A DNA stretch of 64,000 nucleotides, taken from an uncultured Methanosarcinales archaeon (lineage in GTDB: Archaea; Nanobdellota; Nanobdellia; Woesearchaeales; ARS49). Both the position numbers and the translations under genes were made by a program. Under the pieces are notes generated by a model. It was not told where the DNA came from. It worked only from the letters and a program-made list of their open reading frames with translations, and ran no database searches. The stretch spans positions 2,431 through 66,430 of the forward strand of contig CAYHOF010000004.1 of the NCBI GenBank assembly GCA_964358315.1. Reading direction: 5' to 3'. Numbering within the stretch: position 1 is the stretch's first letter; each line of letters begins with the position of its first letter. Below are positions 9,001-32,362 of the stretch, piece by piece.

Positions 9001-12000
9001 TTCCTGCAACGTTTCATCGAACGTTTTCACAATCGGCTGGTTGTTGTCAGTCCGCTTCCTGTTCACGATGTCGGTCGCGTCCGTGACGCCATCGCCGCGT
9101 ATCAATAATGCGTCGCCGTTGCTGAGAAACGCGCGGGTCACGACAGGTCCGGAAGGGATGAACGCGGTCCCGAAGCCCACGTCCATGGTTGCGCCTTTTG
9201 AATGGCCGAGGACGCGGCCTGGCGGGCCGAGTTGTGGGTTGTACGTGGCGCCCCGCACGTGTCCAACCTGATACCCATGGCTGTGGAGTGTGGCAACGCC
9301 TTGTTGGACGTTGATATCGATGGTCGCGCCTGAGATGAACTTGCCGATGTAGAGCCCTAACTGGTCCTGGTCCCGCATGGCGTCGAACTTTCGTCGCAGG
9401 AATTCGTCCCGGCTCGTCCTCTGTTCTGTCTGTGAGCTGGACGTGAATCCTGAGTCGATGATGGCCTGTTCGAGCACTTGCGCGGCCAGCCGCATGGTTT
9501 TTTCCCGCAGTTCGGCGTCGGCCGGTACCTTGATTGTCAGCCGTTCGAGCCCGTCTTTGATGCGTTGCAGTTGTTCGGCGGTGAGTCCATTCGGTCCGAT
9601 CGAGAGCACGTCGCTGCCAAGCGCCGTGAGGATTGCGGATTCTGTGGTGTGTCTCTCGATAGTGTCCGCCTGCACCGCTTGTGCTTTCCTGACCTGTTCG
9701 ATCGCATCAGCCCGGTCTTTCACGTTTTCTCCGGCCTTGTCCTTGATTGCGGTATACTCCTCGTTTGTGAGCGCGTCCGGATTGATCGAGAGGAGGCCTT
9801 CTCCGAGCGCTTCGTAGATTTTTTTCTGGGTCGCGGTCATGCCGCTGTCAGGACTGTAGGGCAGCACGGTCGGGATCCTCGCGCGCACGGCATCCTGGTA
9901 TTGCGGGAAGGTCTGGAGGATGCCCGACGCGGCCTTATAACGATCGAGCGCTGACGTGATGATTGGGAAGAGCGCGCCGCGGAGTTGCAGGTATCCGACC
10001 TCGCTCGTGACTGACGCGTCGTACGTCCCGGCAAGGACACCCGAGCCCGTGATGGCGATCTCGAGGACCCTGGCCGTGTTGTCATCGATGGCTTCGGTCA
10101 AGTCGATGGTGGGGTTGACGCCGTGCAGTCCCAGGTTCTCGCCGATGTACTTGCGCACTGTTCTTTTTTGTTCAAGCGTGAGGCTCTGGAACGTGCGTCG
10201 CGTGGCTTCGTTCTCTATCTGTTTGTAGAGAGCACCGATGATGCCTGCGTCGAGGCCATGGCCTGAGATGTCGCCGTATTGTATCGAGATGATGTCGTTG
10301 CCCTCCGCATCCTTCATGGCGACGACACGGACATGGTCGCCACCACCCATGCTGCTGAGCTGCTGCAGCCATTGCGCGAGCTCGACCGTGGTCCCGTCCT
10401 GGTACGCAAAGGTGAGTCCTGTCGTCGCGCCGTTGTCATCGACGGTCTTCTGGACCGTGACGCCCGGCGTCCGCTCGAGCGTGCGCACGTCGACGGACGG
10501 CTGCGCGGTGGCGCGCACGCCTTCAAGCGTGACTTGTCGCTTCCACGCGGCTATGCGCGCGGCGTTCTGTGCGGGTGTTTCAGTCGGCAGCTTCTTCTTG
10601 ACTGCAAACGGCACGAGTTTGTCTGCTTCGGCATTCACGAATTCTTCTTGGAGTCCACGGATAAGGTCGAGTTGTAGCTGCAGTCCGACGCTTTCATCAG
10701 CGGTTGCGGTGGCGAGTCGTGCGATGACCGTTCGTTCTGCGACAAGCGCGGCTTCCTGCATCAGCCAGCGTTCATGGCTGCTGATCTGGGATGCGCTACG
10801 GTCCGAATCCTTCGGTACTGTACGCAGGTTAAGCGCTGCACGGTAGCGCGTCACTGCCTCCTCTCGTGTCAACGAGACGGCATTACCGTCGATGACGATG
10901 TCGAGCAAGGCAAGGGGTGAAGGTCCGGTCTGTTGCACCGCGCGTTCGAGCCCCACGACCGTTCCATCCTTGTCGCGCGCGATCTTCTGGGTGTAATCCG
11001 GCAATGTCCCGTCCTTGCTTGTGATTTTTATCACGTCACCCAGGAGCACGTAGTCGAAGTTGGCGTCTTCATACCGTGCCACGTCGAGCATGTGGCGTTG
11101 CGTGAGCGGTTGTCCGTTGATGGTGGGCGTGCCCTCGCGCAACACGATGGGTGCTGGCTGGATCTCTGTTTGCGGCTGGCTCGGGCCGATGCCGGCGATC
11201 CTTCCTTTGGTGTCGGTGTAGATGGGGATGTCGAGGCCGGGTTGCGTCCCGTCGATACGCATGACACGGATGCCTGTAGGGGTGATCGTGTACGTGAAGA
11301 ATTCGTCCTGCACTTGCGGGTTTGTCACATCGATGGCCTGGCCGTTGATGGTGAGCTGGCCTTGTATCACCACCACAGGGGAGGGGGACTCCTCGCCCTT
11401 GATGATGATGCGGGGTTCGGTCACGCCGAGCAGCCTTCCGTTGTAGTCGCGCATGATCAGGACTTCTTGACGTGGTTGCGCCGCATCCTTGGGTATGATG
11501 TCGATGATGGCGCCCCTGCGTTGGTAGATGAAGTGCGTGTCCTCGACCCGTTGTCCTTCATCGACTTCCAACACGCCGATCTGGATTGCATCGCCCGCCA
11601 CCACGATCGCAGCCGGCGTCGGGACGATGGCTGGCTGCGGCGGCTGTTCGAGGAAGCTCTGGTCGAGTTCGTGCACTCTGCCGATCGTGAGCGGCGTGTT
11701 CTGGCCTTGCTGCCTCACTGTGGTCACGCCTGCATCGGTGACGACGTCGAGGATGGCAACCACCTGCCCGTCTGCCATGTCGCGGCTCACGCGCAGCTTC
11801 CCTTGCGTGGGGTCGTAGTCTATCGTGAAATCGCCCGCATAGACTGTCCGCGGTCTGCCGTCGAACGTGATTTCGGTCGTCGTCCCGCCTGCGAACACGC
11901 TGACGCCGTCCGCGCGCGGCACGATCATGGGCGTAGTGAGCGAGATGAGGTCACGCACGTGCTTGAGGTCGTCGTTGAGAAGGAGGAGTTGGAGCTGTCC

Positions 12001-14826
12001 ATCAACGCGATCATTATGGAGTATGGCTAGTGCGGCAAGGGTATTTTCTTGGGATCGGCTGGCGTCAGGAGACAGCACGATGGTGTCGATCTTTCCTGTG
12101 TGTTGGTCGATGTCGATGATGCTGGCGCCATCGACGTGTTCACTCGTCACGGTGACGATGCGACCGTCCTCATCGAGCACGACGTAATACTGGCTAAGCA
12201 CGCCACCCCAGACAGTCGTCACGTCTTGGGTCACTGCAGGCAGGTCTTTGCCTGTGCGTTGATTCACATCGTCTATGCCTTGTGCGAGCGCGTCGATGTT
12301 GTCGAACACGACGCGTTCCACCTCGCGTGAAGAGCCTGCAGGGAGCAGCTGGAAGTCGGAAGGCGTGAGGATCGAGCGCAGTGCCGCGTCGGCCACGATG
12401 TCTCCCTGGGCAACGGCGACAGGCGCTGCTTGTGGCGACACGCCTGTGATGATGTCGCGCACCAACAAGAGTTTGGCGAGTTCGTGCCTCGCTTTCGGGA
12501 TGTTTCTGGCGATCGTTTGGTATGCTTCCTGCAGTTGTGGGCGTCGCGTGGATCCTTCACGGGCCATCCGCATGAGTTCAGCATCGACGGCTTTGAGGTC
12601 GAGGCCAGGTCGCTGCGCGAGGACCTCGTTGCGTGCGTGCTCGAGCGCGAGCGTGCGGGCCATCTCGCGCGGCGTCATCCTGACGAGCTTTTTTACAGCG
12701 CCACGTTTTTCCGCTTCTTTGAGGAGCGCGTTTGCTTGAGGGTCTGCGTCCAGTTGTGCCCGCGCGTCAGCAAGCTGGCGCGCGACGTCAGGGGATAGTT
12801 GTTGCGCGAGTGTCCCTAGTTGCTGTTCGAGCGTCGATCGCGCTCGTGGCTTGGGTGGTTGTTTCGGATGTGGGATCGGCGCTGGCGGGATGACTGCCGC
12901 GACCGCTTGCGTGATGTCAGCGCCACGCGTTCTCTTGGCCCACCAGATGCGGAATGTCTCGATAGGGCCTGGCGTCCTGCCGAGCACAGACCTCGCTTGG
13001 AGCATGGTGACGCCCATGTCGAGGACGGCGATGACAGGAGAGATGATGAGGTACCCGAACGTCGCGGCCGACCTCAGCACCGTGGGTTTTGGTGAGGTGG
13101 TGGGCACGATCCTGGCGCGAACGTGATCCTTGATGGTGTCATCCACTGCTCTCTCGACGTCGAATTCGTCGGGGCGCTGGCCGGACGCGCCTGGCCCGCA
13201 CCTCATGCGGGACCTGAACCTGCATGCGTCATCTGCCTCGGTCCGGCGCTGCACGTCCGACGCGAACGGATCGGTGGCGGCACCGAGCGCGAGCAGCCGT
13301 TCGTAGAGCGCTTGGCTCATCGCGACCGTGCCGTCATCTTCTGTCTCGATCCCTTCTTCGACGTCTTGCGCGGCAACGCCGTGTTCTTCGCGTACCTGCG
13401 CGACTTGTGCGTCTGTCGACTGCGGTGTGACGGCTTGTTCGGCGCGTCCTTCTGTGGGTGTCGTGAAAAGCGCTTCGTTGCTCACAGGACCTAGTGCGGG
13501 CTCGCTGGGCCCGATCGCGGTGATGTGGGAGGGATCGGATGGGTCGAGGCCTTCTGCGGGGATGGCGACGACGACCATGGCATTGGGATTGTTGACCTGC
13601 ACGACCGTGCCACCGACGTCCAGCCTGTGCGTCCCATCAGTGACCGGTCTGTGGCCGATGATCATCTGCTGCACGTTCTGACCGGTCTCCCGACGTATGT
13701 CTGCAAGCAGGGTGGCGACCGCATTCGCTATCCTCTGTTGTTTCTGTTCGCGCGTGTACGGATCTTTCTCGGTCTCAAGCGTGTTGTCCGTGTGCGTGAG
13801 CGATTTGACCGCGTCATAGTCCTTGTTTTCGACATTGTAGTATGATTGCTGTATGTCCGGCGTCGTGTGCGATGCCACGAATGTCGACCCCACGACCATG
13901 AGCGGGAAACTTCGCGCCAGCGAGCCTAGCGATTCGAGCATCGCGGGTCCGAGTTTCTTCTCGATGTGATCGCGCAAGAGGCGGGATTCGCCTCCTGCTT
14001 CCGGGCTCACGAATTTGGCGGCGCCGCCGTAATATTCGGTCGCGTCGTCATGGTTGCCTTGGATGACGTGGAAGCTATCAGGGAAGGCTGCTTTGAGGTC
14101 CATGACCATCTGGAGCGCGGTCAATGATTCGACCATTTCCGCGTTGAGGCTTGCTTCGTCGCCCTGTTCCGCGTTTTCCCATCGCTCTTTGCCACGCTCT
14201 TCGGCGTGGAGGATGTCACCTAGCATGATGATGTTGGCTCCTGGCGGCGTTTGTCTGAGAAGTTCGATGTACGGCCTTTCAGAGATCGGCTCGATCTGCT
14301 GCAGCGCCTGCAGGAGCATGCCGCGACGGCCGTGCAGGTCGGGGATGATGAGGGCGGGCAGCGCTGGATTCTTGAGCGTGAGGATGCCGTTGGTGTCGAT
14401 GGCGCCGGCGAAATCGGCCGCGAGACCGGCTTCCACTGCCAGCGCTGCGCGGGCCTTGTCGATGGACGCCTGCAATGCTGTGGGGTCTATGCTTCGTGCG
14501 GCGGCCAGTGCGGCATAGTGATCGATGGATGTGGGGTCTGTGGGGATGGCGCTCGTCGCAGGAATGGTCTGACTGTCGAGAAACTGGAGTGCGATGATTG
14601 CATTGCGTCGTTCAGTGCTGTCCGCAGTGCTGTCCGCGATGATACGTTGCATCACGTCGCGCAGTTCTGCGCGCGCTTGTTCGTCCGTGATGCCTGCCGC
14701 CTTGTACTCGTTCAAGTATTGTTGGACTTGGTCGTGGACGCCTAATGGCAGCAGGCATGATTGTGCGTAGGTGGCAGGGAGCTGCAGGATGAGCAGTGCG
14801 ATGATGAGGAGGGCGCGTGTTCTCAT
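5992..14826 (-). CDS. Giant secreted multidomain protein (2944 aa). Signal peptide, N-terminal PPP-like metallophosphoesterase domain, 'RCGPGASG' module, Pro-rich linkers, long unknown regions.
   Basis: Single uninterrupted ORF. N-terminus 'MRTRALLIIALLILQLPATYAQS' reads as a signal peptide. 'IIPDLHGRRG...IIMLGDILH...VIQGNHDD' gives the phosphoesterase motifs. Codon usage is consistently coding, with an A-ending Ala/Gln/Thr codon bias. Confidence 0.8.
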   Translation of the reverse strand: MRTRALLIIALLILQLPATYAQSCLLPLGVHDQVQQYLNEYKAAGITDEQARAELRDVMQRIIADSTADSTERRNAIIALQFLDSQTIPATSAIPTDPTSIDHYAALAAARSIDPTALQASIDKARAALAVEAGLAADFAGAIDTNGILTLKNPALPALIIPDLHGRRGMLLQALQQIEPISERPYIELLRQTPPGANIIMLGDILHAEERGKERWENAEQGDEASLNAEMVESLTALQMVMDLKAAFPDSFHVIQGNHDDATEYYGGAAKFVSPEAGGESRLLRDHIEKKLGPAMLESLGSLARSFPLMVVGSTFVASHTTPDIQQSYYNVENKDYDAVKSLTHTDNTLETEKDPYTREQKQQRIANAVATLLADIRRETGQNVQQMIIGHRPVTDGTHRLDVGGTVVQVNNPNAMVVVAIPAEGLDPSDPSHITAIGPSEPALGPVSNEALFTTPTEGRAEQAVTPQSTDAQVAQVREEHGVAAQDVEEGIETEDDGTVAMSQALYERLLALGAATDPFASDVQRRTEADDACRFRSRMRCGPGASGQRPDEFDVERAVDDTIKDHVRARIVPTTSPKPTVLRSAATFGYLIISPVIAVLDMGVTMLQARSVLGRTPGPIETFRIWWAKRTRGADITQAVAAVIPPAPIPHPKQPPKPRARSTLEQQLGTLAQQLSPDVARQLADARAQLDADPQANALLKEAEKRGAVKKLVRMTPREMARTLALEHARNEVLAQRPGLDLKAVDAELMRMAREGSTRRPQLQEAYQTIARNIPKARHELAKLLLVRDIITGVSPQAAPVAVAQGDIVADAALRSILTPSDFQLLPAGSSREVERVVFDNIDALAQGIDDVNQRTGKDLPAVTQDVTTVWGGVLSQYYVVLDEDGRIVTVTSEHVDGASIIDIDQHTGKIDTIVLSPDASRSQENTLAALAILHNDRVDGQLQLLLLNDDLKHVRDLISLTTPMIVPRADGVSVFAGGTTTEITFDGRPRTVYAGDFTIDYDPTQGKLRVSRDMADGQVVAILDVVTDAGVTTVRQQGQNTPLTIGRVHELDQSFLEQPPQPAIVPTPAAIVVAGDAIQIGVLEVDEGQRVEDTHFIYQRRGAIIDIIPKDAAQPRQEVLIMRDYNGRLLGVTEPRIIIKGEESPSPVVVIQGQLTINGQAIDVTNPQVQDEFFTYTITPTGIRVMRIDGTQPGLDIPIYTDTKGRIAGIGPSQPQTEIQPAPIVLREGTPTINGQPLTQRHMLDVARYEDANFDYVLLGDVIKITSKDGTLPDYTQKIARDKDGTVVGLERAVQQTGPSPLALLDIVIDGNAVSLTREEAVTRYRAALNLRTVPKDSDRSASQISSHERWLMQEAALVAERTVIARLATATADESVGLQLQLDLIRGLQEEFVNAEADKLVPFAVKKKLPTETPAQNAARIAAWKRQVTLEGVRATAQPSVDVRTLERTPGVTVQKTVDDNGATTGLTFAYQDGTTVELAQWLQQLSSMGGGDHVRVVAMKDAEGNDIISIQYGDISGHGLDAGIIGALYKQIENEATRRTFQSLTLEQKRTVRKYIGENLGLHGVNPTIDLTEAIDDNTARVLEIAITGSGVLAGTYDASVTSEVGYLQLRGALFPIITSALDRYKAASGILQTFPQYQDAVRARIPTVLPYSPDSGMTATQKKIYEALGEGLLSINPDALTNEEYTAIKDKAGENVKDRADAIEQVRKAQAVQADTIERHTTESAILTALGSDVLSIGPNGLTAEQLQRIKDGLERLTIKVPADAELREKTMRLAAQVLEQAIIDSGFTSSSQTEQRTSRDEFLRRKFDAMRDQDQLGLYIGKFISGATIDINVQQGVATLHSHGYQVGHVRGATYNPQLGPPGRVLGHSKGATMDVGFGTAFIPSGPVVTRAFLSNGDALLIRGDGVTDATDIVNRKRTDNNQPIVKTFDETLQETLKQAVLSARDIVSLQQQLVQEAHEELGIARNGQLVDEMVDDMTGLSITLTRPRTAQPAPPQAVSRAPVTDVDAISQAAAVVERQANDPTNTPPAELVRDVQQARPIAIAEPAPITPPSRPGVSAPVYHINDPAGVHAEAERRNIPTDNAVAPATGESFGQASTNVLIAELVRDDIAAAGIAQGDTITINVGTAVTGVYVKTLRGIGNAPARIVLQSPDGTQQAYLVRHGPTGSLGVQSYRLIEKATLPAPIVPQPRTTQPMSDAERQQQIEQARKELEEQGRATLSAAEASWQTDRATANALLDAMQESEAVRELSTMTPQQVAEVLAYQRLANEILATNPDTSLTDISSRILMFEQDRLREFEQVYAEIAQQPENAKTQLAGMLLTRHALAHDKAPNVKDIVLRNFYEQGRDFLATTNTALADAGLGRRVAGIERTHLDTILVVVDRGTNARGERVTEKLPLILGLEPTTRRFDDTDIIIKRDRDTLTLEREATLLGSTRLAQLFGVKNQVLATLTVPPEAPGPRAVAPAPPGPVAPAPVTPQSAPVAPTPAPTTDQASGRGEATAAGRLLEEGVAGATDVSGETFIAEDLAPKQRAATIIEESLHSVLRTKGTQRALVDALVAGEVAFAAAKASFLAEHPEYASQSDRAIAEEIIVKFGSALTLAQRQLNTGKVAAFDAADLAHRDFVVNALGLSEAITDRSLVIALRERFGLVAGDSVIVQPQVVDQSALLQILINNVEGNTALRHVTSAPTKPAFSDVTLIPTPPRPTPTTPLPTSVEREDTRRSALATDTITRDNIHELFSNEHAPGVFGAKGMVYEDEAGELHILFWKTGDGTIGNNVHHRDGLATLIRREGDGMERYATALEARGNDEGALGALYEADKRRLLARTISYERSQTEASLPDDVLRRAEGIQMTLGKDGKVRFLDIDSSILASQLSRGTVVDATMLSRMITLAHESINPYLRGYHNIIRIKGLQTLNLNGPLELPSGLSVQDLQEE

Positions 14827-14969: not shown

Positions 14970-15054
14970 GGTATACTAAAGTTTATCGTGATAGACTATA
15001 GATATATAAAAGTATACGTATATTTGTAGTCACTGACGTGTGATAAAAATAAGA

Positions 15055-15063
15055 AGATTTATA
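15055..15063 (+). promoter_or_regulatory. TATA box (gatttatata) ~40 nt upstream of the ATG at 15100, inside an AT-rich divergent promoter island at 14970–15099
   Basis: AT-rich 130-bp stretch in an otherwise GC-rich locus. GTATAC and CTATAG palindromes are present. Confidence 0.4.
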
Positions 15064-15099
15064 TAGGTGATTCCATCAGCGCGCTGCACGTGATCCACT

Positions 15100-15696: not shown

Positions 15697-15702
15697 CGCG
15701 CC

Positions 15703-16092
15703 ATGGCCTTGCCGTCTAGCGCGCCGACAATCGTGGGCATTGACCATCTGGTACGGCAGCTTTTTGGTCAGGAGCACCAGATCAAGTGCGTCGCGAACGA
15801 ACGCGGTATGGTGTTCCATGGCGTCAATAGCCAGCACGCGTGGAACGGTGTTTTTGGCGTCTGTTATGTCGAGGGCTCGAAAGGCAACGCGCTTGCCGGC
15901 GTCATTTACAACAACCAGATTGAATTCAGGCGTCACGATGCCTTCACCGAGCAGCGCGTCAGGACCATGATGTCGTTTGTGGCAGTTGAAGTGAAAAAAT
16001 CCCTTGATCATTCTCTCGTGCCAGTCTTTGATGGTTACGAGCTCGTCTACGGTGCCACCCGGTTGGGACGCGTGGACGATTCAGCACTGTAG
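15703..16092 (+). CDS. Hypothetical protein (129 aa)
   Basis: Starts 6 nt after the stop of the previous ORF. GC3 ~70 %. Competes with the opposite-strand ORF 15490..16011. Confidence 0.35.
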   Translation: MALPSSAPTIVGIDHLVRQLFGQEHQIKCVANERGMVFHGVNSQHAWNGVFGVCYVEGSKGNALAGVIYNNQIEFRRHDAFTEQRVRTMMSFVAVEVKKSLDHSLVPVFDGYELVYGATRLGRVDDSAL

Positions 16093-19000
16093 TGATGCTG
16101 TCGCGCGTCCTGTGAACATGTTCTGCCGGTCGGCTGGCGTCATTGCCGCGAGCGGCGCGGATGTGGCATGCGCTGAATTGAAAGTGTGGATGACCTCATT
16201 GCCTGCGATGACCGTGAAGCCATGCAACCCTTCGAGACCTGGTTCATTCTCGAGTTCTTTCAACTTTTCAAGGACTGCGTTGATGCGTACCGCGCGGTCC
16301 CTAGGACCGATGAATAGTTCGATAGTGCCCTTTGAGACCTTGATGTATCCTTCAACCCTGTTTTTCTTCTCGCCAGGGATTATAGTGTTGTGCAGGGTTT
16401 GTGAATTCGCGCTGACGTAGGCGATCTTGCCGCCCGCGATCACGACCTTCACGTCCACACCCTGCTCCAGCAGTCCTTTGAGTCCGAGATACTCCTCCTT
16501 CACTTGGCTTGGACTATACGTTCCTGGCGGTGCTTGTTGGGCTGTCGGTGCTACCAGCGCAGCCACCTGGTCATAGCTCGTTGCTGCAGCTATGCCTGGG
16601 AAGCGTTGGGTGAGCTCGAGCGCGCCAAGGAAGAACTTGCCTGTGTTACCGTCGATCGTGATGACGTCTTTCGTGCTGATGGTCTGCGCAAGCAATGCGA
16701 TATCCGCGCTCTTGGCGCCGACAATGGCAGGGATGCCGAACTTGCGCGCCACGACCGCGGCGTGGCTCAAGCGACCGCCTTCCATCGCGACAACGCCCGC
16801 GAGCCTTGACATCATCGGCACGACGACACCATCTATCGTCACGACCTGGCCCACATCCTCCGGCGTGAGAGCGTCGGTGACGAGGATGACTTTTTGTCCT
16901 TGTTGTATGAGCGTCTTGGCCCGTTCGATTCCTGCCTGCTTCTGCGCGCCGATCGCGCGCACAATGACGCCTGTCGCCGCGCCGCTCGACGCGGGCTCTG
17001 CTGCGAGAAGCGTCGATGCTTTCTGCCCTTCGCGGACCTGCGTCTGTCGGAGTTGGCTGAGCAGCGGCTTCATGCGTTCGAACGCAGCCTCGTATGCGGC
17101 AGGGGGTGTGCCGAACACGCCTTTCTCGACCAGGTTGATGATGGACCGTAACGCTGCAGCAGGCTCCATTTCCGCTGTTCGTGTCTGCAGGATGTAGAGT
17201 CGTCCATTGTCGACGGTGAACTCGATGTCTTGCGCCGTGCCGAAATGCCGTTCGAGTGTTTCCGCGTACGCCAGCAGTTGGCGGTGGAGCGCGGGCGAGG
17301 TGCGTTGGAGGTCGGCGACTGAACGCACCGCACCCTTGCCTGACACAACTTCCTCGCCTTGCGCGTTGGGGAGATACTCGCCTGTTGGTGTTGCCTCGCC
17401 CGTGATGGGGTTCTGCGTGAAGAGGATGCCTGTGAGCGATGTGCCGAGCCTGTTGTTGCCGAACACCATTTTTTGGACTGTCACCGCTGTGCCGAGCGTG
17501 TGCGGGATGCGGTTGGCGTCCCTGTACGCGACCGCGCCCGGCGTGTTCCATGACTTGAACACCGCTTCTGTCGCCGCATCGAGTTGCGCCCTGCCGTTGT
17601 GCAGGAAGCGTTCATGGCCGTCCCGTGTGAGAAGTAGTTTCATCCTCTCAATCACCTGTGTCGGTGTCGCGCCCGCCGCAAACCGGTCGATGCGCGCTTT
17701 TTCATAGCCGAGCACGGTCACGGCGAAGGACTGCAGGAATGTGGCGTACGTGCGTGTGGCTTCCACTTGTCCGATCATGCGGGCGAGCGCGGGGAGCGTC
17801 TCGTCTGTCAGGCCTACGTTGAGCACGGTCTCGAGCACGCCCGGCATCGAGACAGGCGCGCCGCTGCGCACCGAGACGAAGAGCGGTGTTGCAGGGTCTG
17901 CTGTAGGATCGTTGGGATCGTAGAGCGTACCTTCTTGTGTGACGTCGAACGTCTGTTTGAGTTGGTCGTTCATCGCCGTGGTGGGCAATTCTCCTGTGCG
18001 TTGGTAATGCTCGAACGCCTCTGTGGTGAGCACGAAGCCCGGTGGGACGGGCATGCCGAGCGCGATCATCTCGCCAAGGTTCGCGGCTTTGCCGCCAAGC
18101 GATGCCCTGAACGCCGCGCCGTGCTCTCCCAGTCCTTCGACCATGGTGCCTGACGGGACGAGTTCGACGGTGCGGAATTCTGTCGCGCCTCCTGTGCGGT
18201 CGCCGAACTTGGAGACGATCGGCGTTTCTCCGGCATAGACAGCAAGCGCCCGGTAGAGGTTCCTGTTGCCTGCCGCGAAGGTGCGGAACTCGTTCTCGTC
18301 GGCGAATTGCGTCTGGACGAACCGTTTGCCGTCCTTGACGCCCTCCACGATGGTGAAGATGTTCTGTGATGATTTGTAGTCGACAACAGGCGCTTCGCTG
18401 CCGGTGCGTGCGATCCATTCGTTCACGGCGTTCGCGAGCGAGCCGTGCGAGATGTCTCCTCCTAAGCTGAAGGTGCCGGCCTGTTCTCCGTTTTTGAGGA
18501 CGGTGACACGACTGCCGTCTTGTTTGTAATGCCACACATTGCCCTGTGAGTCGAGGGTCATGATGGACAATGCCTGTTCTGAGAGCGCCAACAATCCTGC
18601 CTGGTTCATCGCTTCCTGGATGATGGGAGTGGCGAACGCCACGTATGTGGCGAGCAATGGTTGCGCATCCTGCGCGGACATCGCCTCGTCGCCGCGGAAC
18701 ATTGTCGGTTGGATGTCTGCACCGGTGAGGACGCCGCGTGCGTGGACGATGACGCCTTCTTCGACCATGCCTTCATGGAATGTTCCTGCCTCGGCCACTC
18801 TGATGACGAGCTTGCCGTCCTTCTCATACATGACGTAGTTGAGCGTCAACTGTCCTCCTTCTTGCGATAACTTCTTGAACATGTCCGCGAGCTGTTGTGC
18901 TGCCTCTGCCGGCGTCTGGTCTGCTGTGATCTCGACCGCCTGGACCAATGCGATGGGAGGCACTTCAACTTGGTCCACGACGCCTGCTGCGTTCTTCTTC

Positions 19001-22000
19001 TGCAGGATCATCGTGCCATCAGGGTTCATTCGGAGGATGCTGTACCCGACTTCGAGCTTTCCGTCCTTGGTCGTGAACGAGACGGTCTCGCCCGTGAGCG
19101 GGACAGGCAACTCTGCAGGCACTGCTGGCGTCGGCGTCACTGCTTGCTGGATGGAGCCGAAGTTCTGCGGTGGGATGCTGATGAATTCGCGGTTGAACGC
19201 CTTTCGGTTGTTCACGAACAAGATGCCGTCCTGGTCGATGGACACGACCGTGCCGCTTGCCAAGGCGGCCTCTTGTCTGGTCTGGTCCAGCGTGACGGTA
19301 TTTGTTCCGGCGGTGACCCTGACGCTTCCATCAGGGAGTCTCTCGATCGCGGTGATGGAGGGGTCTATCCTCGCGATGTCGTTCATCGTACCGGCCTGCC
19401 TGTCAGGGCGTGCGGTGAGCGTGATGCTGCCGATGTCAGTGGTCTGCGGCGTTGTCGTGACCCTGATCTCTCGCTTGCCACGTACGATATCGTATTCCGT
19501 GTTGGAATACTGGTATGCGAGATCCGTTGGTTTGGCCAGCGTTTCCACTGTCACGCTCGTGATGCTCTCCCCTGTCGCGGTCTGCATTGTGCGGGCGGAG
19601 AGTTTGATGTTATGCTGCGGCAGCGTGAGATCGCCATCAAGGCCCATGTGATACGTCGTGCCTGCAATGACGACCTGGATGCGTTGTGTGAGGAAGAGCG
19701 TCCATGGATTGCGCACGACGCGTGTCTGCATCGGCACGGGTTTCGCATCGGTCTGCACGGCGAATTTGGAGTTGAATTTTCCGACGATCTCGCCGTTGAT
19801 GATGATGTCCATGCCGTGCATGCTTTCAAAGCCCGGCTTTGATTGCCACGACTGCACGACGGCAAGGGCGCTGGCGCGCGCTTCGGGCGTGTTGACGTTG
19901 AAGAAATCGATGCGGTTGCGCTTGTAGTTGATGTAGCCAGGCGCACGCGCCACTTTGTTGCCCAACTCGTAATGGAGGCGCGCGCCTTCCCCATCGACGA
20001 CAGCATCCACTGTGGGCACCGCTCCTGAGACGACGAACCTGATGTTGGTGTCGCGCAGGCGGGGATTGTCTGCCCTTGGTAGGATATCGGCGAGGTCTTT
20101 CTCACCGTCATATTCTTGGACAGGCGCTTCTGGCGTCACGGTCGGTGTTGGCACGACAGGAGGGGCGGGTGGTGCGATCGTCTCCTTGACCTTCTCATCT
20201 ACGGTCTGGTCCAGCGCTGTCTCGACCTGTTGTTCGCTGACGCGCACGCCAGGTGCGCCTGGTCCGCAGCGCAGCGGCGATGCGACCTTGCACCTGTCGT
20301 TCTGCTCGGTGCGGCGCTCGACTTCTGCCGCGAGCTCGCTACCAGGGATGCCCAGCGCGATGACATTGTTGGTGAGGTCCTCGCTTGCCGCGACAGTGCC
20401 ATCAGGTTGCGTCGTGACCTGTTCATTAATTGTCTGCGTCGAGACGCCACGCAATGCGCGCTCGGCAGCGACCTCGTCGACGGCGGATGGCGTGGGCGTG
20501 ACTTGTGGTGCGGCGGTCGGTGTTGTGAACGTGGTGACGTCGTTGTCGTTGATTTGTATTTCGACGCCGTCTGATTGTCGTCGGATGGTGGTTTGGCCGT
20601 TTGCTGCGCGGACGATGCGGCCGGTGATTGTCGTTACGATTTCGGTCTTGCCTGTTTGTGGGTTCGGGACGAGGATTGATCTGACGTTGACGGTGATGGG
20701 GGTGTCTGGGACGATGCCGAGTGCCTCGAGTTGTTTGTCGAGCGTTTTTGAGGTGTCGCGTGGGACGGGTGCGGCGGTGGGTGTTGGTGTCGGTGCGGTG
20801 ATGGTGTCAACTTGGTTGTCGTTTATTGTTATTGGGCCGTCTGCGGTTGTGATGGTGGTTTTGCCGTTTTGTGTTGTTATGGTGCCGGTGAGGGTTTCTG
20901 GTACGAGTTGGGTTGCGCCTGTGACGGGGTCTGTTTTGAGTGTTCCTCGGGTGGTTTGGATGGTGACGGTGGTTGTGTCTTGTGTGATGCTGAGCGCGGC
21001 GAGTTGGGCAGCGAGTGAGGTAGTCGTGTCGCGGGGTGCTGTTTGTGCGGCTGCTTGCGCGGCGGGTGTGAGTCGTGTTGCGGTTTGTGTTGCCTGCTCG
21101 GCAGCGACTTGTGTCGTTACCGGCTGGCTGGCGAGTTCCTGTAACTCTGCCGCGAGTTGCTGGACTTTCTGTCGTGCTGCTTCCTTGTTTTCTGGCGACG
21201 CTTCTTCAGCTGCTTTCGCCGCTTGTGTCACTAAATCAGCCAGGGCTTTCAGTTGTGCGGCTTGTGTGTCCCGTGCGCCTGCATCGGGCGTGCCCAAGGT
21301 TTGTGCCCGGAGCGCGGTTTGTTGTGCGACGCGGGCGACTTCCTGGGCGTGATCAGCTACGGTTTGAGGTGCGCCGGCAACAGTATGGGCGGCTTGAACA
21401 GCCGCTGCTGCTGTTTGTTGTTGCAGTGCAGATTCAAGGATTTGCGTCCGTTCATGAGTCAGTTGGGCTGTCCTTGCGCGCGCATCTCGTTCAACTTCCT
21501 CTGCCTTCGCACGTTGTTCGGGCGTGAGCACAGGCAGGTTGGAGAGTGCCGCCATTGCCTGTGCGTGGTCTGCTCTAGCGAACGATAATGCGATATCAAC
21601 GGCATTGATGGCTTGTTGTGATGTTCCGCCCTCGAGACGGACTGCAACCTCGGTCTTTGCCATTGTTGCCGAAGCAGTGGCGTCGCTTTGTTGTCGTGCT
21701 GCTTTGACGCGTTCAGTGGCTGCTTTCCTGACATCTGGCACGTCGATGCCCAGTGCTGACTTCATTCTCGTGCCCATGCTTGGGTTCGCTATGGCTGACG
21801 ACGCCGCGTTCTGCACTGCATTGAAGTACGTCGCCCGTGATGTTTGCATTGCCGCTTCCGCGACTGCACGGTCTGTGCCGGCGTAGTTACGGGCTTGGGT
21901 CGCTCGTGCTACTGCTGCGGTGTTCCCACTCGCGGCTGCGGTGATGAGCGCGCGTTGAGCCCGTTCTTCCGCAAGAACGGCTGTTCTATAGGCGAGCTCC

Positions 22001-25000
22001 GCTTGTGATGCGTCGTTTGCCGTTCGTCCTACTGTATCATCAGGTGCGAGTTCCTGTGCTTTAATATTCAGTAAATCAGTCTGGATCTTGGTTTCTTGCT
22101 GATGCAGATTCAGCAGTTGTTCTTCGGCAGCCTGTCGTTCTGTCGGGGTCTTCGCGGCGTTATAGCGGGCGGTGGCGTCTTGGAGCAATACCTGGTTGTC
22201 CAGTTGTTCGGCCTGCTTTTTGGACGATGCGTCTCCTTCTTCATTGAGTTGGTCACGTCGGCCGAATGTTTCTGCTTTGCCAGCGAGTCGTTGCACGTCC
22301 TCGAATGTGAGCGTCTTGCCAGTTGTTGTCGTGACGGCTTGGACGCCTCCTTCGGCCATGGCACGGTACAGATCAACAACATTCGTTGCGCTCTGTTTCG
22401 TGCCATCTTGAGCTATAATCGTAAGCGCGCCGGCTCCAATGACATCGTTGAATATCGACTGACTGTGTACTGCCACTTTTGCGTCAACACGCGCCTTTAT
22501 CAACCGTCCACCGAATGTCTCAGATCCTTCACCAAGACCTTCTGCCAGAGAACTCATCGCTTGTCCGAATGCAGAACTATCGCCGAATATGTTGCCCGCG
22601 ATCTCACCCACAAAATTTGCGGGATCGAAGAATGCCTCTCTGAGACTGACCGTCACTCGCACTTGTGTCATCAGTTCTGTGAACGGGTCTGCTACTCTAA
22701 AACCACCTTGTGGCTTGCGTGTGAAGTATGTTGAGAGATCTTCCTCGTTCTCAGGAGCAATCTTGTTGATGAACGCCCCTACTTGTTTGGCCGCGGCGAC
22801 CGTGGTGCCGCCGAGCCGCGCAAACGTGGGGAGTCGTGAAACGAGCGTTGCTTGGAGCGCTTTGACTGATTCTCGTTCTAAGATCGAGCCTGCAACCGAA
22901 CCTGCTTTCCCGAAGATGGCAACGCCACCAGTGGAGAGCGGAGCCATCAAGCCGCTCATGATGATGGTATTACCTAATTCAATGAAGGAGTCCGTGCTTT
23001 CTACCACGCGGACTGCGCGATCGTAGTCTTCAAGAAGGGCTTTGTCTCCTATCAACTTGATGTATTGCTGGCCGGTCTCGTAATCGCCGCTGAGGTATTT
23101 TGTTTGCGCGACGTTCAGCAATGTCTGCGTGTGCAGTTCCTTTGCGGCAGCGTTGTTTCTCCAAGCAGCTCCAAACCGGTCTTTCAGATACCCCTGCATG
23201 AGCGGATCGGATTTGCGCAGCGCGCTCCACAGCAGGGGATCTTTCTCGACTGCATCTGTGAGTCTGATTCCTGGCTGCTGGAGCGCGGCTTCGACTGATT
23301 TGTCTAGTCGTGCCATGCTGCCTTTTTGTTCGAGGAGTTCAAGAGTGCCTCCCCCGTTCTGGCTTTTGTCCATGCCCCAATTCCACATGAGTGAGAATGC
23401 CTTGAGTGGTATCTGCACGGTCTCTGCAGCCCTGTCCAAACCACTCACGTCTTCTTTGTTGCTGAAGAAGGAGAACTTGCCATCATGGAATCCTTGCAGT
23501 CGGTCATGTTCTTCTTTGAGAGCGACGCGTGCATCCCGGAGCGCAAGCGCGGTTTTGTAGCGCTCGTCGCCGGCAAGGACAACCCCATAAAGTGCGCCTT
23601 TATCCTCGAATTTTTCCGATGCTTTTTTGGCTTCACCGAGAATACGAATAGTTTGTTCGTTGATACCGTACGTTTCACTGCCTGTAGTGCCGACCGTCTT
23701 GAAAAAGTCGAGGCGTTCTTGTGTGGTCAGTCCTTGCTGGGTGAGTTTGCTGTTGACCTCCAGTAGCACGCGTGTTTGTTGGGCAAGGTCTCTTGCCTTC
23801 TTTTCAGCTTTATCATTGGAGGAGTCAACTGTCCACGCGTCAGATCCGCCGATAGACACCACGGCGTTGTACGAATTGCGGACAAGGTCTGTTGGTGCGC
23901 GTACAACTAGCTTCACGAATTCGCCGCCTGCCCCGGTCACCGTGCCAACTGTGGCCTGGACAAGCCCGCCCGTTGCGCTGTATAAAGAATCACTTGCCTT
24001 CTGCCAATCGCCATCGTAGAGCGCAATTCCGGTATTAACGAGTCCGTTCGCGGTGTTGTACACGCCCTCTGTCAGAGGTTTGACTGCGCGCGCGCCACGA
24101 GAGTACAGTGTGTCTTGTGTGACGCTGTTATAGAGTTCGGTTGAACGCGCCAATTGTCTGTTTATTGCGTCGAAACGTTTTGCTATGTCCGCATCGTCAC
24201 CAGATCCGAGCTCTTGCGCGATAGCAGCATAGAGGTTCTTGCCTGTACCGGCGTAGTTACTGTCTGCAGTAGTCTTATCGCTGCCTTCAAAGTATCCAAC
24301 GTTGGAGATCGCGTCACGCACATTCTTTTCATAGAGTTCAAGTGTGGCAGCGGCCACTCGTGCGTTGTCTCGGACGAACTGTTTTTTCACATCAGCACTG
24401 GCCGAACCAATACCAATGAATGCTTCTTGCTGTGCAAGTTCGACGTAGGTCTTATATTCTGGGTTTTTTGCAGCAATCGCTTGGAGCCCTTGCCAGGCAT
24501 CCACTTGGAAGTTCAACGCTTCGACTTTCTGGTCTTGGGTGAGAACCCCTATCTTCCCGGTTTCATCCACCGTGAATTTGCCCGTTGTCTTATCTACTGT
24601 TAGTGTTTCTGCACGTTGCGCAACAGTTGAGTATTCGCGTGCAAGTGTGCCGAAGCGATATAGCGCATCTGCGTCTCCTGCACTGGATGATTTGAGACTG
24701 AGGAGGGTGTTGTGGGTGAGTGGAAGGAGAGACCTCTCTAAGTCGTCGCCAAGCACGGAATTTTTTGTCGTTGATGTTAATCGTAACAGATTGCTCATCA
24801 ATTCCGTGTCGGTCGTGCCCTGTCTGGCCTGCTCTGCGAGTGTCGCAACGTTTTCTTTGATACGGGTTTCCACGTAGCGGAGGTCTTTGGTGAGTAGTGC
24901 CGCAGTGCTGGGATCAGCATTCTGTGCAGCATTGTATAATGCATCGTAAATGGTTGCGATATTGTCACTAGCTTGGAGCTTCTTAGCGAAATACCCGTCG

Positions 25001-32338: not shown

Positions 32339-32362
32339 TGATAATAAGATGCCCATTACAAA

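What the first reader, a model, noticed from the sequence alone, without database searches (positions are those of the whole stretch)
16084..18160. Rifampin-phosphotransferase/PEP-synthase-like kinase module fused to the C-terminus of a 4888-aa signal-peptide protein
The last ~690 aa of giant protein 2 carry 'GGKAANLGEM' (PPDK_N / ATP-grasp nucleotide-binding) and, ~440 aa later, 'GGRLSHAAVVARKFGIPAIVG' (the PEP-utilising phospho-His swivel domain). No TIM-barrel PEP/pyruvate domain follows, which matches RPH-type small-molecule or protein kinases rather than metabolic PPDK/PEPS. Fusion of such a module to a giant, presumably extracytoplasmic, repeat protein is unusual.
Basis: partly seen in the sequence, partly recalled or inferred. 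Interest (0 to 1): 0.75.

Follow-up and report, generated by a model that had tools for sequence, protein, structure and literature searches.

The report
PPDK half inside giant archaeal protein
A 4,888-residue, signal-peptide-bearing protein of an uncultured groundwater nano-archaeon really does carry, near its C-terminus, the intact ATP-binding and phospho-histidine parts of pyruvate phosphate dikinase without the pyruvate-binding part; no comparable fusion turned up among billions of proteins, and its target is unknown.

Summary
Residues 4208-4714 of the 4,888-aa ORF (window 16081-30747, minus strand) are a full-length homologue of residues ~9-513 of pyruvate phosphate dikinase (PPDK). They comprise the ATP-grasp nucleotide-binding domain plus the swivelling phospho-His domain (PDB 1kbl E 5e-77; TIGR01828 E 7e-109; MSA-based AF2 pLDDT >90; Foldseek TM 0.63). 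Every catalytic residue I checked is present: K4220, R4294, D4507, E4509, Q4521, R4523, H4662. No PEP/pyruvate TIM barrel follows.

The module is PPDK-type, not RPH-type: 365 versus 69 bits, the His domain directly follows the ATP-grasp domain, and the PPDK-specific helical stretch of the nucleotide-binding domain is present.

The module is bracketed by two copies of an orphan ~105-aa domain (X1, X2), so the fusion is not an assembly join at the module's edges. The host is a DPANN 'Nanoarchaeota' MAG from Hainich groundwater. The rest of the giant protein has no detectable homologues. No equivalent fusion appeared among the best hits from 1.84 billion cluster representatives.

TIM-less PPDK halves are themselves common, about half of the best homologues. 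Function is inferred only: an ATP-driven phospho-His donor acting on a non-pyruvate acceptor, probably as payload of an exported host-interaction protein. I rate it moderately interesting, a new architectural variant of a known enzyme kind.

The parts
16081..30747 (-). Giant gene G2: 4,888 codons plus stop. The start ATG overlaps the stop of the upstream gene (ATGA).
30676..30747 (-). aa 1-24, Sec-type signal-peptide-like N-terminus (MNRK + 18-aa hydrophobic core + VLA|DS). It is the only strongly hydrophobic segment in the protein.
   Evidence: Kyte-Doolittle mean 2.46; by inspection only, no SignalP run
22909..22971 (-). aa 2593-2613, IIMSGLMAPLSTGGVAIFG: a charge-free, Gly-rich, weakly hydrophobic stretch. 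It is the only candidate internal membrane segment, and a borderline one.
   Evidence: Kyte-Doolittle mean 1.58. My hand sum with the Hessa scale is about +3.9 kcal/mol, which argues against spontaneous membrane insertion.
20515..21036 (-). aa 3238-3411, two tandem ~85-aa Thr-rich units joined by a TPTPT linker. The GC3 change point (0.55 upstream, 0.72 downstream) falls in this linker at about nt 20781.
20176..20493 (-). aa 3419-3524, region shared with the neighbouring giant protein G1 (its aa 467-573; 43% identity, E 3e-19). It contains the Cys pair C3486/C3494 in 'RCKVASPLRCGPGA'.
19759..20070 (-). aa 3560-3663, orphan domain X1, a paralogue of X2.
   Evidence: (BLASTP 3e-10, 27% identity); no homologues elsewhere
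18127..19758 (-). aa 3664-4207, region of unknown fold between X1 and the dikinase module.
   Evidence: no Pfam, NCBIfam or PDB hit; no homologue in 5.8 billion clusters
17170..18126 (-). aa 4208-4526, PPDK-type ATP-grasp nucleotide-binding domain, including the helical stretch (model helices between residues 129 and 222) that corresponds to the extra subdomain reported for PPDK. Catalytic-site equivalents: K4220 (=K22), R4294 (=R92), G (=G101), D4507/E4509 (=D321/E323), Q4521/R4523 (=Q335/R337).
17017..17169 (-). aa 4527-4577, linker between the nucleotide-binding and phospho-His domains, aligned to the PPDK linker.
   Evidence: alignment; (pLDDT 83-93)
16606..17016 (-). aa 4578-4714, phospho-His swivel domain (PEP-utilizers). 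PPDK homology ends at about aa 4714, equivalent to residue ~514 of the Clostridium symbiosum enzyme, which is the start of the linker to the missing TIM barrel.
16762..16764 (-). Codon of His4662 in GGRLSH, aligned to the catalytic His455 of C. symbiosum PPDK (GGMTSH). The column is invariant in the 52-sequence alignment.
16486..16605 (-). aa 4715-4754, Ala/Pro/Gln-rich linker.
   Evidence: low pLDDT
16162..16485 (-). aa 4755-4862, orphan domain X2. It sits where the TIM barrel would be. Predicted alpha+beta, but with low confidence. Residues conserved between X1 and X2 include two His, K, two R and two E.
16084..16161 (-). aa 4863-4888, C-terminal tail ending in ...ASLQC; the last residue is one of only nine Cys in the protein.
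30744..31856 (-). Upstream, translationally overlapping gene: 370 aa, one TM helix (aa 50-68), with a weak Big_9 Ig-like domain in the ectodomain.
5992..14826 (-). Second giant gene G1 (2,944 aa). It has a signal-peptide-like N-terminus, a calcineurin-like metallophosphoesterase domain (DLHG/GDILH/GNHD, aa ~160-260), and the region shared with G2.

Best explanation
Shown. The C-terminal part of the giant protein contains a complete PPDK-derived 'front half': an ATP-grasp nucleotide-binding domain plus a swivelling phospho-His carrier domain. All residues needed for the first partial reaction are in place (E-His + ATP + Pi -> E-His~P + AMP + PPi). The PEP/pyruvate TIM barrel that normally receives the phosphate is absent. 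The module is embedded between two copies of a lineage-specific ~105-aa domain. It belongs to one continuous ORF that begins with a Sec-type signal peptide. The organism is a DPANN ('Nanoarchaeota') archaeon.

Inferred. The module works as a portable ATP-driven phospho-His donor. It either hands its phosphate to an acceptor other than pyruvate (a protein, glycan or small molecule held by the flanking orphan domains, X2 being the positional replacement of the TIM barrel), or simply turns ATP over. ATP is not available outside cells and the protein looks exported. The most likely setting is therefore that the giant protein is a host-interaction protein of an episymbiotic archaeon, and its enzymatic C-terminal block acts in or at the partner cell's cytoplasm. 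The neighbouring giant protein's phosphoesterase domain would be a second payload of the same kind.
For: Identity and completeness of the module. Conserved K22/R92/G101/D321/E323/Q335/R337/H455 equivalents: alignment, invariant columns, positions. K22 is essential in both PPDK and RPH (PMC4844700).

Fold: the AF2 model built with a 52-sequence MSA has pLDDT >90 over most of the module and pTM 0.77. The best PDB match is PPDK 1kbl, E 1.5e-44, rmsd 3.5 A.

No TIM barrel in the protein or the window.

A real fusion: the X1/X2 paralogues bracket the module, the ORF is uninterrupted, and GC3 is uniform (0.70-0.75) across aa 3500-4750.

The TIM-less front half is a recurrent, portable unit. 129 of the 265 best homologues lack the TIM barrel and carry varied C-terminal add-ons. 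It sits at the C-terminus of ~1,470-aa proteins in L087/L088. It is fused to REC+bDLD1+EAD11 in a conflict-system operon next to an EAD11-trypsin gene. RPH and GWD show that swivel-His dikinases can phosphorylate non-pyruvate acceptors, including a polymer (PMC4844700; PMC13553574).

Export: a signal-peptide-like N-terminus, no segment with Kyte-Doolittle mean above 1.65 after it, and three short-range Cys pairs, one of them in the C-terminal block.

Organism: an archaeal proteasome/SBDS/Rrp4/Rrp41 operon and a NOG1 GTPase lie in the window. Identical proteins are named 'Nanoarchaeota archaeon' in NCBI and occur in Hainich groundwater assemblies. Giant signal-peptide surface proteins proposed to mediate host interaction are documented in DPANN nanohaloarchaea (PMC10266531).

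Payload theme: G1 carries a Metallophos domain.
Against: No acceptor is identified. X2 and all other flanking regions are orphans with no homologue and no confident fold. No ortholog exists, so purifying selection on the module cannot be measured.

An ATP-dependent enzyme on an exported protein is functional only if it is delivered into another cell. Protein delivery by Nanoarchaeota has not been demonstrated. The polymorphic-toxin catalogue lists no dikinase or ATP-grasp toxin. No immunity-like gene is recognisable downstream.

Topology rests on hydropathy and inspection only. A weak charge-free hydrophobic stretch at aa 2593-2613 could put the C-terminal 2,270 aa in the archaeon's own cytoplasm.

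The GC3 break at aa ~3322 means the link between the signal peptide or trunk and the enzymatic block depends on one assembly.
Confidence: 0.4

Rival explanations
1. Same enzyme, different compartment. The giant protein is membrane-anchored, with its N-terminal ~2,570 aa outside and its C-terminal ~2,270 aa, including the dikinase module, in the archaeon's own cytoplasm. There the module uses the cell's ATP to regulate or energise the surface apparatus. This would be analogous to the cytosolic VirB4-like ATPase at the C-terminus of nanohaloarchaeal giant surface proteins.
For: The ATP requirement of the chemistry. The precedent of signal peptide + ectodomain + TM + cytosolic ATPase in DPANN giant proteins (PMC10266531). 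A 21-23-aa charge-free Gly-rich hydrophobic stretch at aa 2593-2613 with Kyte-Doolittle mean 1.58. The module itself is Cys-free.
Against: The stretch falls below the 1.6 hydropathy cut-off used here. It contains four Gly, Pro, Ser and Thr, and my hand-summed Hessa scale gives about +3.9 kcal/mol. A Cys pair (C3486/C3494) lies in the supposedly cytoplasmic part. No dedicated topology predictor could be run.
Confidence: 0.25
2. RPH-like small-molecule (antibiotic/xenobiotic) phosphotransferase. The module phosphorylates a small molecule bound by neighbouring domains.
For: There is no TIM barrel. RPH and its homologue BsPPS, which is reported to phosphorylate polyphenols, show that swivel-His dikinases can act on small molecules (PMC4844700; PMC13553574). 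RPH-type HMMs give weak hits whose best-scoring stretches lie in the His domain.
Against: The RPH model scores 69 bits against a cutoff of 999, versus 365 bits for PPDK. No rifampin-binding-type domain lies between the ATP-grasp and His domains. Domain order and the PPDK-type helical stretch of the nucleotide-binding domain are PPDK-like. Foldseek to RPH gives TMq 0.38 against 0.63 for PPDK. A resistance enzyme has no obvious reason to sit on a 4,888-aa exported protein.
Confidence: 0.1
3. Inactive relic or purely structural/binding module. A captured fragment of a metabolic PPDK gene that no longer catalyses anything.
For: The essential acceptor domain is missing. No orthologs exist to demonstrate constraint. 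The regulatory-site Thr (GGMTSH) is replaced (GGRLSH).
Against: All eight catalytic or near-invariant residues are intact, and identity is 44-46% to homologues over the trimmed ~510-column module alignment with no truncation. The predicted fold is confident. TIM-less halves are far too common and too conserved elsewhere to be generally dead.
Confidence: 0.1
4. Assembly artefact. The giant ORF is an in-silico chimera, for example a join at the GC3 change point near nt 20.8 kb, so the dikinase block is not really attached to the signal-peptide-bearing trunk.
For: A sharp GC3 shift (0.55 to 0.72) at aa ~3322, located in a low-complexity TPTPT linker with a 17-nt tandem repeat. The organism is at only 2-4x coverage in the public Hainich assemblies. 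The exact giant protein is not on record in the protein collection.
Against: The reading frame is continuous for 14.7 kb. The two Thr-rich repeat units lie on either side of the change point and are homologous, which suggests a real tandem duplication spanning it. Even if the contig were chimeric there, the module would still be fused to about 885 upstream residues of non-PPDK sequence (aa 3322-4207) and bracketed by X1/X2.
Confidence: 0.07

Closest known systems
Pyruvate, phosphate dikinase (PPDK, EC 2.7.9.1; TIGR01828; PDB 1kbl/1dik/5jvl)
   Same: Residues 9-513 align end to end at 33-41% identity in pairwise comparisons (44-46% over trimmed module columns). Domain order is the same (ATP-grasp, linker, phospho-His domain). 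The PPDK-type helical stretch of the nucleotide-binding domain is present. K22, R92, G101, D321, E323, Q335, R337 and H455 are all conserved. The predicted fold superposes on 1kbl.
   Different: The C-terminal PEP/pyruvate TIM barrel (PF02896), which also mediates dimerisation, is absent, so it cannot interconvert pyruvate and PEP. The module is embedded at aa 4208-4714 of a 4,888-aa signal-peptide protein. The score is 365 bits against a family cutoff of 843.
Short 'PPDK' proteins lacking the TIM barrel (NCBIfam NF004531/PRK05878 type, ~480-600 aa; also ~700-aa forms with a helical C-terminal add-on)
   Same: The two-domain content is the same (PPDK_N + PEP-utilizers only). They are as similar to the module as full-length PPDKs, or slightly more so (up to 46% identity). 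They are widespread: 129 of the 265 best homologues.
   Different: Those are stand-alone, apparently cytoplasmic proteins of uncharacterised function. Their C-terminal extensions share nothing with X2 or any other part of the giant protein. The NF004531 score of 344 bits is below its cutoff of 456. Some database examples may be truncated ORFs on short contigs.
Rifampin phosphotransferase (RPH; NF041857; PDB 5fbs/5hv1)
   Same: A swivel-His dikinase with no TIM barrel whose acceptor is not pyruvate. It shares the ATP-grasp Lys22 and the His-domain fold.
   Different: RPH has a ~430-aa rifampin-binding domain between the ATP-grasp domain and a C-terminal His domain. It scores only 69 bits, with the best stretch confined to the His domain, and Foldseek TMq is 0.38. 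[quoted passage not shown]
Alpha-glucan, water dikinase (GWD/PWD)
   Same: A large multidomain dikinase in which the ATP-binding and His domains are combined with non-TIM substrate-binding domains in order to phosphorylate a macromolecule (PMC13553574). It is a functional analogy for 'dikinase module plus foreign targeting domains'.
   Different: The domain order is reversed (His domain before a C-terminal ATP-binding domain). It carries CBM45 modules, is plastidial, and lacks the extra PPDK-type nucleotide-binding subdomain. No CBM is detectable here.
Giant surface proteins of DPANN archaea (nanohaloarchaeal 'SPEARE'-type proteins, 8,880-9,409 aa)
   Same: A DPANN host, a Sec signal peptide, thousands of residues of mostly unannotatable sequence, and a nucleotide-dependent enzyme domain near the C-terminus. 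They are proposed to have a role in host interaction (PMC10266531).
   Different: Those carry Ig-like/WD40 domains, TM helices and a VirB4/TraG-like ATPase. None of these is detected here. There is no sequence similarity, and the enzyme here is a dikinase.
EAD/Death-like-domain conflict systems (Kaur, Aravind et al.; PMC7159879, PMC8195603)
   Same: One homologue, P0212, couples the same TIM-less PPDK half to REC + bDLD1 + EAD11, next to an EAD11-trypsin gene. This shows the half-enzyme deployed in a biological-conflict context.
   Different: The giant protein contains no EAD, Death-like or NTPase domains. The papers' main texts do not mention a dikinase component. The relation is by analogy only.

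Membership tests
Pyruvate, phosphate dikinase (TIGR01828) | N-terminal ATP-grasp nucleotide-binding domain of PPDK type | tested here: met
   Pfam PPDK_N 2.4e-38. TIGR01828 positions 9-509 matched. AF2 pLDDT >90 and Foldseek to 1kbl E 1.5e-44.
Pyruvate, phosphate dikinase (TIGR01828) | Nucleotide-site residues K22, R92, G101, D321, E323, Q335, R337 (C. symbiosum numbering) | tested here: met
   Aligned to K4220, R4294, the G in MPGV, D4507, E4509, Q4521 and R4523. The residue list comes partly from my own knowledge of Ye et al. 2001 (cited in PMC4844700) and from the PDB mutant entries K22A and R337A.
Pyruvate, phosphate dikinase (TIGR01828) | Central swivel domain with the catalytic His (GGMTSH, His455) | tested here: met
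   PEP-utilizers 3e-16. GGRLSH with H4662 is aligned to it, and the column is invariant in 52 sequences.
Pyruvate, phosphate dikinase (TIGR01828) | C-terminal PEP/pyruvate-binding TIM barrel (PF02896) | tested here: not met
   No PF02896 hit. The custom TIM HMM gives E 1.7. Only 174 aa remain after the His domain.
Pyruvate, phosphate dikinase (TIGR01828) | Whole-protein score at or above the curated cutoff (843 bits) | tested here: not met
   365 bits.
TIM-less short PPDK-like proteins (NF004531/PRK05878) | Only the nucleotide-binding and phospho-His domains, with a score at or above 456 bits | tested here: inconclusive
   The architecture of the module matches (positions 11-462 of 534), but the score of 343.6 bits is below the cutoff. 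The NJ tree does not place the module in any TIM-less clade.
Rifampin phosphotransferase (NF041857) | Substrate (rifampin)-binding domain inserted between the ATP-grasp domain and the His domain, with the His domain at the extreme C-terminus | tested here: not met
   The His domain follows the ATP-grasp domain via a ~50-aa PPDK-type linker, and 174 aa follow it. RPH architecture is as described in PMC4844700.
Rifampin phosphotransferase (NF041857) | HMM score at or above the cutoff (999 bits) | tested here: not met
   68.9 bits; the best-scoring stretch lies in the His domain.
Alpha-glucan water dikinase | CBM45 modules and the order His domain then ATP-binding domain | tested here: not met
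   No CBM hit. The order here is ATP-binding domain then His domain. GWD architecture is from PMC13553574.
Polymorphic toxin systems | N-terminal secretion signal | tested here: met
   Signal-peptide-like N-terminus, judged by inspection and hydropathy.
Polymorphic toxin systems | Known trafficking or repeat modules (RHS, filamentous haemagglutinin, pre-toxin domains) and a catalogued C-terminal toxin domain | tested here: not met
   No such Pfam hits. No dikinase or ATP-grasp toxin appears in the catalogue (PMC3482391).
Polymorphic toxin systems | Immunity gene immediately downstream; C-terminal cassette variability among relatives | tested here: inconclusive
   The downstream ORFs (15100-15696 +, 15490-16011 -) have no family hits. 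There are no relatives to compare. The GC3 break at aa ~3322 hints at a modular C-terminal block.
DPANN giant surface proteins (nanohaloarchaeal type) | Signal peptide + Ig-like/WD40 ectodomain + TM helices + C-terminal VirB4-like ATPase | tested here: not met
   Only the signal peptide is shared. No Ig, WD40 or ATPase hits and no clear TM segment.

The most novel reading that the evidence does not exclude
The giant protein is a host-directed delivery vehicle of a DPANN archaeon. Its PPDK-derived half-enzyme is an injected effector that uses the host's ATP (and Pi) to phosphorylate a host macromolecule via phospho-His4662, or to drain host ATP to AMP + PPi. That would make it the first swivel-His dikinase used as an inter-cellular effector, and the first biochemically tractable enzymatic payload of an archaeal episymbiont's giant protein.
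Probability: 0.2. Interest if true: 0.8.

Novelty: new variant of a known kind. Interest (0 to 1): 0.5.

Why it matters
Swivel-His dikinases without the pyruvate domain form a large, almost uncharacterised group. Roughly half of the best homologues found here lack the TIM barrel. [quoted passage not shown]

This case puts such a module, with its catalytic residues intact, into a giant exported protein of a DPANN archaeon. Organisms of this kind depend on physical contact with hosts, and the function of their giant proteins is an open question.

The module is the only recognisable, assayable domain in 4,888 residues. It therefore offers a concrete experimental handle, through autophosphorylation, product analysis and acceptor trapping, on what such giant proteins do.

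If the module proves to act on a host component, it would add a new enzymatic class to inter-organism effectors. If it proves to be cytoplasmic, it would be a second example, after VirB4-like ATPases, of a nucleotide-driven C-terminal domain on archaeal giant surface proteins.

Tried and rejected
- Single-sequence AF2 of aa 4180-4888 gave pLDDT 39 and was useless. The MSA-based rerun modelled only the PPDK half confidently. X2 stayed at pLDDT 34-53, so no fold search on X2 was meaningful.
- Homologue searches for the flanking regions found nothing: aa 3400-4207 and the X1/X2 alignment.
- The JGI metagenome scan gave only distant PPDK-like loci. The GTDB genome scan gave only ordinary PPDKs, and the source genome is not among the representatives.
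- The exact giant protein is not on record, so the 92-kb NCBI contig and its annotation of this gene could not be retrieved.
- The NJ tree of 266 module sequences left the module on a long unresolved branch, 44-46% identical to both TIM-bearing and TIM-less forms. Whether it descends from a TIM-less lineage could not be decided.
- By eye I suspected a SpoIIE/PP2C motif 'GDISGHG' in G1 (aa 1518) and further X-like copies in G1 and mid-G2. Neither Pfam at E<=1 nor the X HMM supports them, so I dropped both.
- I looked for a split-PPDK partner, that is a TIM-barrel ORF in the window, and found none.
- The extra domains of other TIM-less homologues and of L087 share nothing with G2 or G1.
- Literature searches found no PPDK-type module described as a toxin or effector. 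They covered PPDK_N/PEP-utilizers and dikinase with toxin/effector terms, plus the Aravind-lab conflict-system and polymorphic-toxin papers.
- Taxon names for the nearest TIM-less homologues were uninformative.

Full report
**What is there**

The window holds an uninterrupted minus-strand ORF, 16081..30747, of 4,888 codons.

Profile searches leave no doubt about their nature.
- Pfam gives PPDK_N (2.4e-38, aa 4216-4471) and PEP-utilizers (3e-16, aa 4618-4703). These are the only significant domains in the whole protein.
- NCBIfam's best models are pyruvate, phosphate dikinase TIGR01828 (E 7.4e-109, model positions 9-509 of 865) and the short-PPDK model NF004531 (1.9e-102).
- The best solved structures are PPDKs (1kbl, 9pzl, 5jvj; E about 5e-77, residues 9-513).
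- An HMM I built from 265 homologues matches aa 4210-4714 over positions 6-506 of 510 (E 8.8e-144) and nothing else in the window.

**Is the module intact?**

The alignment to Clostridium symbiosum PPDK and a 52-sequence alignment (A2) show that the following equivalents are all present: Lys22, Arg92, Gly101, Asp321, Glu323, Gln335, Arg337 and the catalytic His455. In the giant protein these are K4220, R4294, the G of MPGV, D4507, E4509, Q4521, R4523 and H4662 (positions). Most are invariant or nearly invariant columns.

With that alignment AlphaFold2 gives mean pLDDT 80.7 and pTM 0.77, and above 90 over most of the first ~530 modelled residues. Foldseek puts PPDK 1kbl first (E 1.5e-44, TMq 0.63, rmsd 3.5 A). 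RPH and PEP synthase follow some thirty orders of magnitude behind (1.5e-13, TMq 0.38; 1.8e-13).

**What is missing**

PPDK homology stops at about aa 4714, equivalent to residue ~514. That is exactly where the linker to the PEP/pyruvate TIM barrel begins. Only 174 residues follow.
- They have no Pfam hit even at E<=1.
- A TIM-barrel HMM made from 40 full-length PPDKs scores the giant protein at E 1.7, while it recognises 137 of the 283 collected proteins.
- That HMM finds no ORF in the window.

The module can therefore do the ATP/Pi-dependent His-phosphorylation half-reaction but cannot make or use PEP.

**PPDK-type, not RPH-type**

- RPH models score 50-69 bits, with their best-scoring stretches in the His domain.
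- RPH has a ~430-aa substrate-binding domain between the ATP-grasp domain and a C-terminal His domain (PMC4844700). Here the His domain follows the ATP-grasp domain through the PPDK-type linker.

What survives is the functional analogy: a swivel-His dikinase whose acceptor is not pyruvate.

**The fusion is real**

The last ~110 structured residues (X2, aa ~4755-4862) have a paralogue, X1, at aa 3560-3663 (BLASTP 3e-10, 27% identity; HMM; alignment A1). The PPDK half is thus bracketed by two copies of a domain found nowhere else. An assembly join at the module's borders would not produce that arrangement. GC3 is uniform (0.70-0.75) from aa 3500 to 4750.

There is, however, a clear compositional break further upstream.
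- GC3 is 0.55 for aa 1-3322 and 0.72 for aa 3322-4888 (change point at about nt 20781).
- Housekeeping genes in the window are at 0.80-0.86.
- The two genes upstream of G2 are at 0.57-0.58.
- The break falls in a TPTPT linker between two homologous ~85-aa Thr-rich units (z=14). A 17-nt tandem repeat also lies there.

I read this as a modular C-terminal block of ~1,570 aa joined to a compositionally different trunk. An in-silico chimera at that point cannot be excluded without reads. It would not affect the module's fusion to X1, X2 and the ~540-aa region between them.

**The rest of the protein and its neighbours**

Apart from a sub-threshold TPR hit, nothing else in G2 matches Pfam, NCBIfam or PDB sequences. 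It is not a repeat protein.

Composition suggests the following layout:
- a Gly/Thr/Asp-rich N-terminal ~1,000 aa;
- a ~2,200-aa Ala/Leu/Gln/Glu-rich, presumably helical, middle;
- the Thr-rich repeats;
- a ~105-aa region shared with the neighbouring giant protein G1 (43% identity, E 3e-19) that contains a Cys pair;
- then X1, an unknown ~540-aa region, the PPDK half and X2.

There are only nine cysteines. Two are in the signal peptide. Six form three pairs of Cys 6-8 residues apart (225/231, 267/275, 3486/3494). The ninth is the very last residue.

After the N-terminal signal-peptide-like segment (Kyte-Doolittle mean 2.46), the only notable hydrophobic stretches are one inside the His domain and a charge-free Gly-rich one at aa 2593-2613 (1.58).

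G2's start overlaps the stop of a 370-aa single-pass membrane protein with a weak Ig-like hit. Two eukaryote-type protein-kinase-like genes lie further upstream. G1 (2,944 aa, 5992..14826) also has a signal-peptide-like N-terminus, and it has a calcineurin-like metallophosphoesterase domain just above threshold (22.6 bits against a cutoff of 21.5; motifs DLHG/GDILH/GNHD).

**Organism**

The window carries the archaeal proteasome-alpha/SBDS/Rrp4/Rrp41 cluster and a NOG1-type GTPase. Identical proteins are deposited as 'Nanoarchaeota archaeon' MAG proteins on a 92,037-bp contig. They also occur in 0.1-0.2 um-filter assemblies of Hainich groundwater well H43. This is a DPANN archaeon, a group in which giant signal-peptide surface proteins are known and are proposed to mediate host interaction (PMC10266531).

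**Are there homologous fusions?**

I found none.
- An exhaustive phmmer search of 1.84 billion cluster representatives with aa 3689-4888 returned 15,022 hits. All of the best 150 match only the PPDK stretch (query 501-1060), and the longest is 1,321 aa.
- The word-indexed search of 5.8 billion clusters gave ordinary PPDKs and TIM-less short forms, the longest 961 aa.
- Genome and metagenome scans gave nothing closer than 41% identity.

Two caveats apply. Only the top 120-150 hits are visible. The giant proteins of this contig are themselves absent from the collections, so similar unindexed genes could exist.

**What the homologues teach**

About half of the best module homologues lack the TIM barrel (129 of 265). 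Some of these may be truncated ORFs. Of the 129, 47 end right after the His domain, 60 carry 150-300 unrelated extra residues, and 10 carry more.

Two metagenomic loci, L087 and L088, encode ~1,470-aa proteins with a ~960-aa helical N-terminal region and the TIM-less half at the extreme C-terminus.

One representative, P0212, has the TIM-less half followed by a receiver domain, a bacterial Death-like domain and EAD11. Its operon also holds an EAD11-trypsin gene, another Death-like-domain protein and a 1,218-aa protein. This is a biological-conflict-type architecture that the Aravind-lab papers' main texts do not mention for a dikinase.

Together these observations suggest that the nucleotide-binding plus phospho-His unit is a portable ATP-to-phospho-His donor that evolution has repeatedly re-targeted. 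The receiver-domain fusion hints that protein acceptors are possible. That last step is inference.

**Most likely mechanism**

Shown: an intact PPDK front half, no pyruvate domain, a genuine fusion, a signal-peptide-bearing giant protein, and a DPANN host.

Inferred: the module autophosphorylates H4662 from ATP, with Pi as co-substrate if it behaves like PPDK. It then passes the phosphate to an acceptor presented by the flanking orphan domains. X2 is the positional replacement for the TIM barrel, and X1 and X2 share two His, Lys, two Arg and two Glu. Alternatively the module just cycles ATP to AMP.

The protein looks exported and ATP is intracellular. The most coherent setting is therefore action in or at the partner cell, as payload of a host-interaction protein, with G1's phosphoesterase as a sibling payload. 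I give this about 0.4.

The main rival (about 0.25) keeps the chemistry but places the C-terminal 2,270 aa in the archaeon's own cytoplasm behind a weak TM segment. This would mirror the signal peptide/ectodomain/TM/cytosolic-ATPase layout of nanohaloarchaeal giant proteins.

Three readings are less likely: an RPH-like small-molecule kinase, a dead relic, or an assembly chimera. The reasons are set out under the rival explanations.

**Verdict**

The enzyme family is well known and the TIM-less half is common. The rest of the protein is an orphan, and the function is conjecture. I class it as a new architectural variant of a known kind and rate its interest at about 0.5. Its main value is as the one assayable domain in a DPANN giant protein.

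Noticed in passing
window 5992-14826 (-): A second giant ORF, G1 (2,944 aa), has a signal-peptide-like N-terminus and a calcineurin-like metallophosphoesterase domain near its N-terminus (DLHG aa 163, GDILH aa 203, GNHD aa 257; Pfam Metallophos 22.6 bits against a cutoff of 21.5). A ~105-aa region containing a Cys pair is shared with G2 (43% identity). The rest has no detectable homologues.
   Followed up: partly
window ~20781 (G2 aa ~3322); also 30744-32983: There is a sharp GC3 change point inside the giant gene: 0.55 for aa 1-3322 against 0.72 for aa 3322-4888. Housekeeping genes in the window are at 0.80-0.86, and the two genes upstream of G2 are at 0.57-0.58. The low-GC3 block (~nt 20.8-33 kb) may be a separately acquired segment, or the contig may be mosaic.
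   Followed up: partly
L090 629-4009 (protein P0212) and neighbours: A bacterial operon encodes HTH; [TIM-less PPDK half + receiver domain + bacterial Death-like domain 1 + EAD11]; [EAD11 + trypsin-like protease]; a bDLD1 protein; and a 1,218-aa protein. It is a conflict-system-like architecture with a dikinase component. The main texts of the two eLife papers on these systems do not mention such a component.
   Followed up: partly
L087 650-5158 and L088 6932-11461: Two related ~1,470-aa metagenomic proteins have a ~960-aa helical N-terminal region and a TIM-less PPDK half at the extreme C-terminus. They have no signal peptide. They are 30% identical to the G2 module.
   Followed up: partly
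window 16084-16086 (G2 aa 4888): The protein ends in ...ASLQC. The terminal Cys is one of only nine cysteines in 4,888 residues and the only unpaired one outside the signal peptide. Its significance is unknown.
   Followed up: no
window 34358-36078 (-): Two adjacent eukaryote-type protein-kinase-like genes (260 and 296 aa; Pkinase 1.7e-13 and 1.3e-4) lie on the same strand, upstream of the G2 gene cluster. With the dikinase and the phosphoesterases (G1 and the 270-aa Metallophos gene at 5208-6020), they give the region a phosphotransfer theme.
   Followed up: no
window 14827-15100: An AT-rich, TATA-box-like intergenic region separates G1 from a divergent 198-aa gene (15100-15696 +). A short minus-strand ORF (from ~14968, MTDITRITKISQRNLERIKRLKAS...) lies immediately upstream of, and overlaps, the G1 start. 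It may be a small regulator.
   Followed up: no
window 33005-34333 (-): This 442-aa ORF begins 'IADLHVHSRFARATS' and contains a 'CPKCHR' motif. By eye it resembles a PHP-domain endonuclease-Q-like protein. Pfam gave no hit at E<=0.001.
   Followed up: no
proteins P0046, P0061, P0079, P0093, P0106: A family of ~700-aa high-GC TIM-less PPDK-like proteins shares a conserved ~220-aa helical C-terminal domain ending '...YVASPRVDSYHSVWFELHEDLI.LAGRTR'. No precomputed Pfam domain is listed for that part. It may be another uncharacterised acceptor domain.
   Followed up: no
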